A DNA stretch of 11,866 bases from a virus. Its lineage: Monodnaviria; Loebvirae; Hofneiviricota; Faserviricetes; Tubulavirales; Inoviridae. The position numbers were made by a program, and so were the translations under genes. Position 1 is the stretch's first letter; every line of letters begins with the position of its first letter. Under the pieces are notes generated by a model. The model was not told the DNA's origin, did no database searches, and saw nothing but the letters and a program-made list of their open reading frames with translations. This document shows, piece by piece, positions 6,051-6,146 of this stretch. The stretch lies in the IMG/VR virus record IMGVR_UViG_2663762893_000001; one strand, written 5' to 3'.

Positions 6051-6062
6051 CTTGAGGTTATT

Positions 6063-6146
6063 ATGGAGATTGAATTATGGAAATTGGGTTCCCTTTTATG
6101 GGGGATCGTCTCAGCTTATGTCGTTATTCTTGGGCTAAGAGGCTGA
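6063..6146 (+). CDS. Candidate small hydrophobic protein (27 aa, MEIELWKLGSLLWGIVSAYVVILGLRG); possible pVII/pIX-like minor coat protein
   Basis: ATG preceded by GAGG with 5-nt spacing. Below the ORF-track size cutoff. Overlaps the 5' end of the pIII-like ORF in another frame. Confidence 0.35.
   Translation: MEIELWKLGSLLWGIVSAYVVILGLRG

What the first reader, a model, noticed from the sequence alone, without database searches (positions are those of the whole stretch)
6054..6146. Hidden 27-codon hydrophobic ORF with its own RBS overlapping the pIII-like gene start
ATG 6063 (GAGG 5 nt upstream) opens a 27-codon ORF, MEIELWKLGSLLWGIVSAYVVILGLRG. Its size and hydrophobicity resemble the ~30-aa pVII/pIX-type minor coat proteins of inoviruses, which ORF finders routinely miss. 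ATG 6077 (GGAG 8 nt upstream) opens the long pIII-like ORF in a different frame, so two starts with separate Shine-Dalgarno sequences are packed within 15 nt. The true pIII start is ambiguous: the in-frame ATG at 6395 coincides with the stop of another hydrophobic alternate-frame ORF ending at 6398 (ATGA overlap).
Basis: seen in the sequence. Interest (0 to 1): 0.45.

Follow-up and report, generated by a model that had tools for sequence, protein, structure and literature searches.

The report
Conserved hidden microgene overlapping pIII start
The 27-codon reading frame is a real, evolutionarily conserved gene for a tiny membrane peptide that sits just in front of, and overlaps, the attachment-protein gene of the YpfPhi/CUS-1 filamentous prophage of plague bacilli and pathogenic E. 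coli; standard annotation misses it and its function is untested.

Summary
GAGG is followed 5 nt later by ATG 6063, which opens a 27-codon ORF ending at TGA 6144-6146. GGAG is followed 8 nt later by ATG 6077, which opens the 570-codon pIII-like (PuvA) ORF in the -1 frame.

The window is the dif-integrated YpfPhi/CUS-1 inovirus prophage. An ORF of this size means nothing alone, but comparison shows it is a gene:
- Ten independent pairs of relatives give 58 synonymous and 25 non-synonymous changes in the small frame (pN/pS 0.12, P about 1e-20).
- The pIII frame over the same bases gives 5 and 75.
- Selection switches to the pIII frame at the small ORF's stop.

Homologues of 24-29 aa (core WGLLCAWAVIQGL) lie directly 5' of gIII in every related inovirus locus that spans the junction. 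Two lineages have them without overlap, which excludes frameshift fusion and a dual-coding artefact.

pIII starts at 6077. The overlap covers only the n-region of its cleavable signal peptide. RefSeq's GTG 6227 start is too late. ATG 6395 and the 6207-6398 ORF are not conserved.

The function is inferred: most likely a low-copy virion or assembly membrane peptide. It is a positional analogue of VGJphi ORF29 and is not a detectable homologue of pVII or pIX.

The parts
5779..6012 (+). gVIII, the major coat protein precursor (77 aa). It is the gene immediately upstream of the small ORF.
   Evidence: It matches Pfam Phage_Coat_B weakly and phrog_2186 (virion structural protein) at 6e-29.
6024..6050 (+). 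Intrinsic terminator: a hairpin (GGGCGAT..ATCGCCC) followed by a U-tract. It separates gVIII from the small ORF and gIII.
   Evidence: The terminator scan finds it. A hairpin plus U-run is present after gVIII in 10 of 11 relatives examined, with different stem sequences.
6054..6057 (+). Shine-Dalgarno sequence GAGG for the small ORF, 5 nt before ATG 6063.
   Evidence: Read directly from the sequence. A GAGGT, GGGGT or AGGTG motif sits 5-9 nt upstream of the small-ORF start in most lineages, though not in the L060 and L062 clades.
6063..6146 (+). Small gene of 27 codons: MEIELWKLGSLLWGIVSAYVVILGLRG. The product is predicted to be a single-span membrane peptide.
   Evidence: It is conserved in all related loci that span the gVIII-gIII junction. 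Over 10 independent pairs its pN/pS is 0.12, against 4.0 for the overlapping frame. The family alignment is A5. Non-overlapping versions occur in L072 and L116.
6065..6068 (+). Shine-Dalgarno sequence GGAG for the pIII-like gene. It is made from codons 1-2 of the small ORF and lies 8 nt before ATG 6077.
   Evidence: Read directly from the sequence. ATGGAG is kept in the whole window and L005 clade.
6077..7789 (+). The pIII-like attachment protein gene (puvA / YPO2277 type), 570 codons. Its start lies inside the small ORF.
   Evidence: It matches phrog_3942. Its C-terminal domain is homologous to annotated attachment proteins. The ATG is conserved in the window and L005 clades. CUS-1 puvA is described as the receptor-binding virion protein (PMC4266046).
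6077..6146 (+). The 70-nt dual-coding overlap. It carries small-ORF codons 5-27 plus the stop in one frame, and pIII codons 1-23 plus the first base of codon 24 in the other.
   Evidence: In this stretch only the small frame shows purifying selection. Window against L004 gives 8 synonymous and 0 non-synonymous changes in the small frame, and 0 and 8 in the pIII frame.
6077..6205 (+). Predicted signal peptide of pIII. The n-region is M1-R22, the h-region is LTVYSFIFSFLWVSF and the c-region is PRYSYS. Cleavage is inferred before F44.
   Evidence: This is an inference from the n/h/c pattern and from the small residues at -3 and -1 (SYS, AYS, ANA, AVA) seen across homologues. The pIII frame is under selection from codon 24.

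Best explanation
**The gene (shown by comparison).** 6063-6146 is a real, independently translated gene of the YpfPhi/CUS-1 inovirus and its wider clade. It encodes a 27-aa peptide with no signal peptide and one hydrophobic span. The family is 24-29 aa long, with invariant G14 and G24, near-invariant F11, C17 and V21, and a G-xxx-[A/G] helix-packing motif.

**Expression (anatomy shown, mechanism inferred).**
- The gene lies just after the gVIII terminator, so it is expressed on the same low-abundance read-through mRNA as gIII.
- Its own Shine-Dalgarno sequence (GAGG) drives initiation at ATG 6063.
- Its first two codons (ATG GAG) form the Shine-Dalgarno sequence for the pIII-like gene, which starts at ATG 6077 in the -1 frame.
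- The 70-nt overlap covers only the sequence-tolerant n-region of pIII's cleavable signal peptide.
- The two start sites are 14 nt apart. Initiating ribosomes should therefore exclude each other, which would tie the outputs of the two genes together.

**Function (inferred).** The peptide inserts into the inner membrane and acts as a low-copy structural or assembly partner in virion morphogenesis. This is a pVII/pIX-like or VGJphi-ORF29-like role, possibly at the pIII/pVI end. It is not a homologue of pVII or pIX.
For: **Context.** The window carries an inovirus module (gII, gV, orf83, gVIII, pIII-like, pVI/DUF2523, Zot/pI, secretin) next to hipBA, with an exact dif site. It is 99% identical to the Y. 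pestis prophage.

**Coding signature.**
- Window against L004 shows 8 changes in the overlap, all synonymous in the small frame and all non-synonymous in the pIII frame.
- Ten independent close pairs give 57.8 synonymous and 25.2 non-synonymous changes in the small frame (pN/pS 0.12, binomial P 1.3e-20). The pIII frame gives 5 and 75.
- Directly after the small stop, the pIII frame becomes the selected one, with pS 0.6-0.7 and pN 0.05-0.17 in pairs involving the window.

**Breadth.**
- Homologues lie 5' of gIII in Enterobacterales prophages (Brenneria, Phytobacter), IMG/VR inovirus contigs and GenBank saliva inoviruses.
- A DNA pattern for WGLLCAWAVI finds 41 IMG/VR contigs, nearly all of inovirus size. 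In every one the motif lies directly 5' of a long ORF, and 39 of these ORFs match the window's pIII.

**Stand-alone gene.**
- In L072 the small ORF is followed by three stops and a 9-nt gap before the pIII ATG.
- In L116 the junction reads TAAATG, and the small ORF's last codons supply a GGAGGG Shine-Dalgarno sequence.

**pIII start.**
- Every overlapping lineage keeps a start codon in the pIII frame inside the small ORF, built from an xxA codon followed by TGG or TGY.
- Four different codons (CTA, TTA, GTA, ATA) keep the A before Cys.
- Lineages lacking that ATG keep one at the Trp site, which corresponds to 6077.

**Conservation level.** Between distant clades the small ORF is 38-50% identical. 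This is similar to pVI, pI and pIV (44-56%) and higher than pIII (27-40%) and orf83 (16-41%); gVIII ranges 27-58% and exceeds the small ORF in the two comparisons with the nearer L009 clade.

**Positional precedent.** VGJphi has the same gene order (gV, orf81, gVIII, orf29, gIII), and its ORF29 is annotated as a putative minor capsid protein.
Against: - There is no direct evidence of translation and none that the peptide is in virions.
- There is no detectable homology to pVII, pIX or VGJphi ORF29.
- The C-terminus is not consistently basic. Some members end in GLES, GLNG or GIDG and have no Lys or Arg, unlike pVII and pIX, whose C-terminal Arg residues contact DNA (PMC10175506).
- At least one relative (OR148968) also has a 29-aa hydrophobic ORF and a 69-aa ORF before gVIII. 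There the small ORF would be a third small protein, not simply the missing pVII or pIX.
- Two clades (L060/61 and L062) have no obvious Shine-Dalgarno sequence before the small-ORF ATG.
- The mutual exclusion of the two initiation sites is an inference from the 14-nt spacing, not a measurement.
Confidence: 0.6

Rival explanations
1. The small ORF is a real peptide gene, but the peptide is an accessory, host-directed factor and not a virion or assembly component. The model is Pf4 PfsE, a 30-aa inner-membrane peptide with an aromatic YAWGW motif. PfsE binds PilC and blocks superinfection.
For: PfsE shows that tiny hydrophobic inovirus peptides can target host membrane proteins (PMC8764522). The family core is aromatic and Gly-rich (F-L-W-G-L-L-C-A-W). 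The C-terminal charge is not conserved, which fits poorly with DNA contact. One relative already has two small ORFs in the canonical pVII/pIX position.
Against: The peptide core is almost invariant across phages whose receptor-binding pIII parts are only 25-35% identical or do not align at all, and which come from different sources: Enterobacterales genomes and human and lemur saliva samples. A host-specific target would be expected to vary. The gene is always glued to gIII and lies behind the gVIII terminator. Its conservation tracks the core morphogenesis genes pVI, pI and pIV. It has no YxWGW motif and is not at the PfsE position after gV.
Confidence: 0.2
2. The small ORF acts mainly as a regulatory upstream ORF. 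What matters is its translation, which couples or throttles initiation of gIII. The peptide itself would have no function.
For: The gIII start lies inside or directly after the small ORF in every lineage. The small ORF's own codons supply the gIII Shine-Dalgarno sequence: GGAG in the window and GGAGGG in L116. The position behind a terminator fits fine control of a low-copy protein.
Against: Strong purifying selection acts on the amino-acid sequence (pN/pS 0.12) while synonymous change is free (pS 0.42). Some residues are invariant and length is held at 24-29 aa. A pure coupling device does not need a conserved hydrophobic peptide. No stable or conserved RNA structure hides the gIII start (z = -0.77; covariation term 0.12). 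The peptide is too short to leave the ribosome tunnel before termination, so it cannot work as a membrane-insertion sensor of the MifM or SecM type. That last point is an inference.
Confidence: 0.1
3. The small ORF is a chance frame. The region is only the 5' end of the pIII gene, as gene callers that start at 6077 assume, or it is non-coding leader, as RefSeq's start at GTG 6227 implies.
For: ORFs of this size are common; the window has 128 of at least 25 codons. PGAP does not call it. It matches no Pfam, PHROG or NCBIfam family. It is almost absent from a library of 1.84 billion proteins.
Against: The frame, start and stop are kept from 99% down to unalignable DNA divergence, with mostly synonymous substitutions. 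The pIII frame over the same bases has pN/pS of 4. Non-overlapping homologues exist.
Confidence: 0.03
4. The small ORF is the true N-terminus of pIII. Ribosomes would start at 6063 and shift to the -1 frame near the stop, producing a fusion protein.
For: The frame relation (pIII frame = small frame - 1) and the position of the small stop at the n/h boundary of the signal peptide are the same in all overlapping lineages.
Against: No slippery X XXY YYZ site or other conserved shift site is present near the stop. Most lineages have an in-frame pIII ATG 34-37 nt before the small stop, which gives a canonical signal peptide on its own. In L072 and L116 the two genes are in the same frame and separated by stop codons.
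Confidence: 0.02

Closest known systems
Ff (f1/M13/fd) minor coat proteins pVII (33 aa) and pIX (32 aa)
   Same: Both are tiny peptides without a signal sequence, each forming a single hydrophobic helix. They are encoded by tightly packed or overlapping genes that annotation tends to miss. They are expected at low copy number, like the tip proteins (PMC10175506).
   Different: No sequence similarity was found to M13 or IKe pVII/pIX or to any PDB chain. The gene lies after gVIII and its terminator and is coupled to gIII, not between gV and gVIII. The peptide is shorter (24-29 aa). The basic C-terminus that contacts the packaging hairpin is not conserved.
Vibrio phage VGJphi ORF29 (GenBank AY242528, annotated as a putative minor capsid protein)
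   Same: The gene order is identical: gII, gV, orf81/83, gVIII, a small ORF of 27-29 aa, gIII, gVI, gI. Both products are hydrophobic peptides of similar size.
   Different: There is no detectable sequence similarity: 0.7 bits against the family profile, while shuffled controls reach 9.9 bits. In VGJphi the terminator follows ORF29, and ORF29 does not overlap gIII. The role of ORF29 is itself only an annotation.
Pf4 PfsE (PA0721), a 30-aa superinfection-exclusion peptide
   Same: It is a small inner-membrane inovirus peptide with a conserved aromatic-Gly cluster, and it is highly conserved within its phage group (PMC8764522).
   Different: The gene position differs: PfsE follows gV, and corresponds to orf30 of Pf1. 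The motif differs: YAWGW against FLWGLLCAW. Binding to PilC or any other host target is untested here.
Overlapping or translationally coupled gene junctions of Ff phages (gVII/gIX, and gIX/gVIII, which overlap by 4 nt in M13)
   Same: Adjacent morphogenesis genes are packed so that one gene's coding sequence carries the next gene's ribosome-binding site or start (one search gives the M13 coordinates).
   Different: Here the overlap is 34-70 nt and out of frame. It covers the n-region of a signal peptide, and the downstream start lies inside the upstream gene instead of at its stop.

Membership tests
Protein-coding gene (general criteria) | The reading frame, start codon and stop codon are conserved across diverged relatives. 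| tested here: met
   The ORF is present in all loci that span the gVIII-gIII junction, down to relatives whose pIII aligns only in its C-terminal domain.
Protein-coding gene (general criteria) | Purifying selection acts on the encoded amino acids, seen as an excess of synonymous substitutions in that frame. | tested here: met
   The small frame shows 57.8 synonymous and 25.2 non-synonymous changes, pN/pS 0.12, P 1.3e-20. The overlapping frame shows pN/pS 4.0.
Protein-coding gene (general criteria) | Direct evidence of translation from Ribo-seq or a detected peptide. | not testable with these tools
   No such data could be reached. Only sporadic 'hypothetical protein' calls exist: Y. pestis PY-66 and WMC01213.1 in OR148981.
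Inovirus pVII/pIX minor coat proteins | A peptide of about 30 aa with no signal sequence and a single hydrophobic helix. | tested here: met
   The family is 24-29 aa with GRAVY 0.8-1.9, against 0.8-1.4 for M13 and IKe pVII/pIX. That it forms a helix is inferred, not modelled.
Inovirus pVII/pIX minor coat proteins | Sequence homology to known pVII or pIX. | tested here: not met
   The family profile scores at most 3 bits against M13 and IKe pVII/pIX. No PDB chain matches at E up to 10. There are no Pfam, PHROG or NCBIfam matches.
Inovirus pVII/pIX minor coat proteins | A positively charged C-terminus facing the DNA (pVII Arg33, pIX Arg26; PMC10175506). | tested here: not met
   The window peptide has R26. 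Several family members have no basic residue and end in GLES, GLNG or GLSGH; another ends in GIDG with its only Arg upstream.
Inovirus pVII/pIX minor coat proteins | The gene lies between gV and gVIII. | tested here: not met
   The gene lies between the gVIII terminator and gIII in all lineages.
Inovirus pVII/pIX minor coat proteins | The protein is present in virions at about 5 copies at one tip. | not testable with these tools
   This needs virion mass spectrometry or immuno-EM.
VGJphi ORF29-type small ORF between the major coat gene and the adsorption gene | A hydrophobic ORF of about 29 codons located between gVIII and gIII in a module ordered gV, orf~80, gVIII, small ORF, gIII, gVI, gI. 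| tested here: met
   The VGJphi record shows the same order. The window order is given.
VGJphi ORF29-type small ORF between the major coat gene and the adsorption gene | Sequence homology to ORF29. | tested here: not met
   ORF29 scores 0.7 bits against the family profile, while shuffled controls reach 9.9 bits.
PfsE (Pf superinfection-exclusion peptide) | A YxWGW aromatic motif and a gene position directly after the ssDNA-binding protein gene. | tested here: not met
   The core is FLWGLLCAW and has no YxWGW. The gene lies after gVIII. Pf1 orf30 occupies the PfsE position.
PfsE (Pf superinfection-exclusion peptide) | Binds a host inner-membrane protein (PilC) and blocks superinfection. | not testable with these tools
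   This needs expression and infection assays.

The most novel reading that the evidence does not exclude
The peptide is a previously unrecognised core morphogenesis protein of a large inovirus clade: YpfPhi/CUS-1, other Enterobacterales prophages, saliva-sample inoviruses and many IMG/VR contigs. It would be an extra virion-tip or assembly component. Its synthesis would be mechanically interlocked with that of the attachment protein, because the pIII start codon and Shine-Dalgarno sequence are written inside its coding sequence. The phage would then set the ratio of the two proteins through competition between two start sites 2-50 nt apart.
Probability: 0.3. Interest if true: 0.7.

Novelty: new variant of a known kind. 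Interest (0 to 1): 0.5.

Why it matters
YpfPhi and CUS-1 have been linked to the fitness of Y. pestis and ExPEC during infection. Their published 13-ORF gene map (PMC4266046) is fully accounted for without this gene, and RefSeq annotation also lacks it.

The finding has several consequences:
- It adds a conserved gene to that map.
- It corrects the start of the attachment-protein gene. The RefSeq protein lacks its signal peptide.
- It offers a candidate for a minor-protein role that has not been assigned in this clade.
- It defines a recognisable motif, WGLLCAWAVIQGL located 5' of gIII, that marks this inovirus clade in metagenomes.
- It is a clean natural example of overprinting, in which a second gene's start is placed in the one part of a protein (the signal-peptide n-region) that tolerates any sequence.

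Tried and rejected
- **The 40-aa version from ATG 6024.** Rejected. The ATG lies in the terminator stem and the extension is not conserved.
- **pIII start at GTG 6227 (PGAP) or ATG 6395.** Rejected. The pIII frame is selected from 6146 onward, and M107 is Ile in homologues.
- **Alternate ORF 6207-6398.** Rejected. It has stop codons in L003, L006, L013, L008 and L009, and its pN exceeds its pS.
- **-1 frameshift fusion, or reinitiation at a non-canonical codon at the small stop.** No conserved slippery site was found. The codons at the junction differ between lineages (CTG, ATA, TTA). Non-overlapping lineages exist.
- **ATG 6098 as the pIII start.** The equivalent codon is TTG, GTG or CTG in relatives.
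- **A regulatory RNA structure.** The MFE z-score is -0.77, there is no covariation, and Rfam gives no hit.
- **Family assignment.** Pfam, PHROGs, NCBIfam and PDB gave nothing meaningful. The only hits were weak and compositional: phrog_18360 at E 0.046 and ArfB at E 0.014.
- **Similarity to M13/IKe pVII/pIX and to VGJphi ORF29.** None found.
- **phmmer of the 40-aa form against 1.84 billion representative proteins.** Only the Y. pestis call itself, a frameshifted chimera and two repeat artefacts came back.
- **Literature searches for a described small ORF at this position in YpfPhi or CUS-1.** Nothing found.
- **One tool call failed** because the 27-aa query was too short.
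Full report
**1. Observation**

The sequence is exactly as described.
- GAGG (6054-6057), a 5-nt spacer, then ATG 6063 open a 27-codon ORF, MEIELWKLGSLLWGIVSAYVVILGLRG, ending at TGA 6144-6146.
- GGAG (6065-6068), an 8-nt spacer, then ATG 6077 open a 570-codon ORF (6077-7789) in the -1 frame.
- No ORF of at least 25 codons lies on the minus strand under 6054-6146.

An ORF of this size is unremarkable alone. The window has 128 of at least 25 codons. The question had to be settled by comparison with relatives.

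**2. Context**

The window is an E. coli chromosome segment.
- hipB and hipA lie at the left end.
- An exact 28-bp dif site lies at 11234-11261.
- Between them sits a filamentous prophage: gII (4109-5161), gV (5173-5490), an 83-aa membrane ORF (5493-5744), gVIII (5779-6012), the pIII-like gene, pVI/DUF2523 (7802-8089), Zot/pI (8093-9118) and the pIV secretin (9118-10362).

The junction region (5750-6450) is at least 99% identical in the best match of 108 of the 109 matching records, from 108 complete E. coli genomes including UTI89 and NC101. The pIII-like gene is 99% identical to that of the Y. pestis prophage. The element is therefore CUS-1/YpfPhi.

The published YpfPhi map has 13 ORFs (PMC4266046). 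The window's 3 + 8 + 2 obvious ORFs account for all of them without the small ORF. The pIII-like gene corresponds to puvA of CUS-1, described as the receptor-binding virion protein (PMC4266046).

RefSeq/PGAP leaves 6013-6226 unannotated and starts the pIII-like CDS at GTG 6227.

**3. The small frame is coding**

Homologues of the long ORF at 88, 83, 66, 64, 37 and 36% identity were found and their DNA fetched. In all of them the small ORF is present:
- MELELWKLLSLFWGIISAYVVILGLRG
- ...LKG
- MWDIVVFLWGLLCAWAVIQGLSGH
- MWDFAVFLWGLLCAWAVIQGLSGR

Nei-Gojobori counts over the 66-nt overlap:

| Comparison | Small frame | pIII frame |
|---|---|---|
| Window vs L004 | 8 syn, 0 non-syn | 0 syn, 8 non-syn |
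| Window vs L005 | pN/pS 0.14 | pN/pS 3.2 |
| L008 vs L009 | pN/pS 0.09 | pN/pS 3.4 |

Summed over ten phylogenetically independent close pairs, the small frame has 57.8 synonymous and 25.2 non-synonymous changes (pS 0.42, pN 0.05, ratio 0.12, binomial P 1.3e-20). The pIII frame over the same bases has 5 and 75 (ratio 4.0).

Immediately after the small stop, the pIII frame becomes the selected one. For codons 24-50 (6146-6226), pS is 0.61-0.69 and pN is 0.05-0.17 in pairs involving the window, and the other two frames show no such signal. The coding frame therefore switches exactly at the small ORF's stop.

**4. Breadth of the family and types of junction**

A search with a pIII alignment in IMG/VR returned 65 loci. 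A DNA pattern for the core WGLLCAWAVI returned 41 contigs, nearly all of inovirus size. GenBank saliva inoviruses of the Dulem and D_HF series also carry the ORF.

Every locus that spans the gVIII-gIII junction has a homologue of 24-29 aa directly 5' of gIII. Alignment A5 shows invariant G14 and G24, near-invariant F11, C17 and V21, and a G-xxx-[A/G] motif.

In most lineages the gene overlaps gIII in the same -1 relation. The small stop sits at the n/h boundary of the pIII signal peptide.

Two lineages do not overlap:
- In L072 the small ORF (MWELMSFFTGVLCGWAVVQGFNTY) is followed by three stops and a 9-nt gap before the pIII ATG.
- In L116, L129 and L133 a GTG-start small ORF ends in TAA directly followed by the pIII ATG. 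Its last codons supply a GGAGGG Shine-Dalgarno sequence.

These cases show a stand-alone gene. They exclude a frameshift fusion and a dual-coding artefact.

Between distant clades the peptide is 38-50% identical. This is similar to pVI, pI and pIV (44-56%) and higher than pIII (27-40%) and orf83 (16-41%); gVIII ranges 27-58% and exceeds the small ORF in the two comparisons with the nearer L009 clade.

**5. Where pIII starts**

The pIII frame has no canonical start between the small stop and the hydrophobic stretch, so translation must begin inside the small ORF.

In most clades an ATG lies 34-37 nt before the small stop. It is made from an xxA codon plus the TGY Cys codon. It gives a textbook signal peptide, for example MRLGSHSWYRW-LIVCFIISQFLYV-QVAHS|FAP. 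Depositors used this ATG in PP511687 and OR148981. Four different codons (CTA, TTA, GTA, ATA) keep the A at that site.

The window and L005 clades have Ser in place of Cys and so lack that ATG. The L087 clade keeps Cys, but its preceding codon ends in T (or C in L098), so it lacks the ATG too. These clades instead keep an ATG at the upstream xxA TGG (Trp) site, which is 6077 in the window.

In the window clade the small ORF carries an N-terminal extension (MEIE-), and its ATG GAG supplies the GGAG Shine-Dalgarno sequence for 6077.

The other candidate starts fail:
- ATG 6098 is TTG, GTG or CTG in relatives.
- Met107 (ATG 6395) is Ile in relatives.
- ORF 6207-6398 carries stop codons in five relatives.

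The pIII-like gene therefore starts at 6077. Its predicted signal peptide is M1-S43, with cleavage before FVPAIAA. This is an inference from the n/h/c pattern and the -3/-1 residues across homologues. RefSeq's 520-aa protein lacks this signal peptide.

**6. How it is expressed**

A terminator hairpin plus U-tract follows gVIII in the window and in 10 of 11 relatives examined, with different stem sequences. No promoter-like site lies between gVIII and 6077. The small gene and gIII are therefore expected to share low-level read-through transcripts, as gIII does in Ff; this rests on established knowledge of Ff.

No stable or conserved RNA structure was found (z = -0.77; covariation term 0.12) and there is no Rfam match.

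With two start sites 14 nt apart (2-50 nt in relatives), initiating ribosomes should exclude each other, and ribosomes elongating on the small ORF run across the gIII start. This is an inference and was not measured.

**7. What the peptide does**

Its properties are:
- no signal peptide;
- an uncharged stretch of about 18 residues (L8-L25);
- GRAVY of 1.14;
- a conserved stripe of small residues typical of tight helix packing.

It matches no Pfam, PHROG, NCBIfam or PDB entry. It shows no similarity to M13 or IKe pVII/pIX.

In its favour as a low-copy structural or assembly protein:
- It is universal in the clade.
- Its conservation tracks the core morphogenesis genes.
- It is obligatorily linked to gIII behind the terminator.
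- Vibrio phage VGJphi has the same gene order (gV, orf81, gVIII, orf29, gIII, gVI, gI), with ORF29 annotated as a putative minor capsid protein. ORF29 is not detectably homologous, however.

Against a simple equation with pVII or pIX:
- The gene position is different.
- The C-terminus is not consistently basic (PMC10175506).
- One relative also has a 29-aa hydrophobic ORF and a 69-aa ORF before gVIII.

The main functional rival is a PfsE-like host-directed peptide (PMC8764522). A pure regulatory uORF is unlikely given the selection on the amino-acid sequence.

**8. Novelty**

Only sporadic automatic calls of a mis-started 40-aa version exist: Y. pestis PY-66 and OR148981. A phmmer scan of 1.84 billion representative proteins found nothing else real. 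The papers examined do not describe it.

Small hydrophobic inovirus proteins, and a small ORF between gVIII and gIII, are a known kind. This is a new sequence family with a new out-of-frame overlap with the gIII start. I rate it a new variant of a known kind, of moderate interest.

**9. Confidence**

| Claim | Confidence |
|---|---|
| The gene is real | about 0.95 |
| pIII starts at 6077 | about 0.8 |
| Virion or assembly role | about 0.4 |
| Combined statement | 0.6 |

Direct proof needs initiation profiling, a G6072T knockout with complementation in trans, and virion mass spectrometry or immuno-EM.

Noticed in passing
window 6077-6226: RefSeq/PGAP starts the pIII-like CDS (WP_000741236.1) at GTG 6227. 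The 50 codons upstream are under purifying selection in that frame and include the predicted signal peptide, so the RefSeq protein is N-terminally truncated.
   Followed up: yes
window 11234-11261: An exact 28-bp E. coli dif site (GGTGCGCATAATGTATATTATGTTAAAT) lies at the right end of the prophage, and hipBA lies at the left end of the window. This fits XerCD-mediated integration at dif, as described for CUS-1 and YpfPhi.
   Followed up: partly
window 5493-5744: The 83-aa ORF between gV and gVIII (phrog_3679, function unknown) has a C-terminal hydrophobic segment ending in basic residues. It is the positional analogue of VGJphi ORF81 and Pf1 orf83. An internal Met52 would give a 32-aa product, MGNYWTLGFGSVLLLWLFSVGVGQVIKMVRTA, which is the size of pIX.
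   Followed up: no
window 6063-6090: ATGGAGATTGAATT (6063-6076) and ATGGAAATTGGGTT (6077-6090) match at 11 of 14 positions. A short tandem duplication may have created the N-terminal extension of the small ORF and the new Shine-Dalgarno sequence for pIII in this clade. The repeat is weaker in the L005 clade, so it may be chance.
   Followed up: partly
L001 7844-9317 (E. coli SCU-101); L006 3504-4411; L007 4719-5626: These are deletion variants of the prophage. In SCU-101 the Zot-like CDS is longer (378 aa) and the secretin gene is missing, hipA is truncated and the prophage is tandemly repeated. In L006 and L007, pVI, Zot and part of the secretin gene are missing after pIII.
   Followed up: no
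L105 136-427 (Inovirus D_HF2_144, OR148968): This relative has an extra 29-aa hydrophobic ORF (MREFMQMVGASFIGCSTALFMLYLVFSYV) that overlaps the end of gV, followed by a 69-aa ORF before gVIII. This is the Pf1 orf30/orf83 arrangement. It also carries the small ORF 5' of gIII.
   Followed up: partly
window 6024-6050 and the homologous sites in L004-L009, L037, L038, L072 and L105: The hairpin after gVIII is conserved as a structure but with different stem sequences (GGGCGAT/ATCGCCC, GGGCGGC/GUCGCCC, GGGGGC/GCUCCC, GGGGC/GCCCC and others). This points to a functional intrinsic terminator between gVIII and the small ORF plus gIII, as in Ff phages.
   Followed up: partly
window 1767-2870 and 2972-3394 (minus strand): Two leftward ORFs of 367 and 140 aa lie next to the HTH repressor-like gene (3491-3937). 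They occupy the variable attL-adjacent accessory region, which differs between CUS-1 and YpfPhi according to PMC4266046. They were not examined.
   Followed up: no
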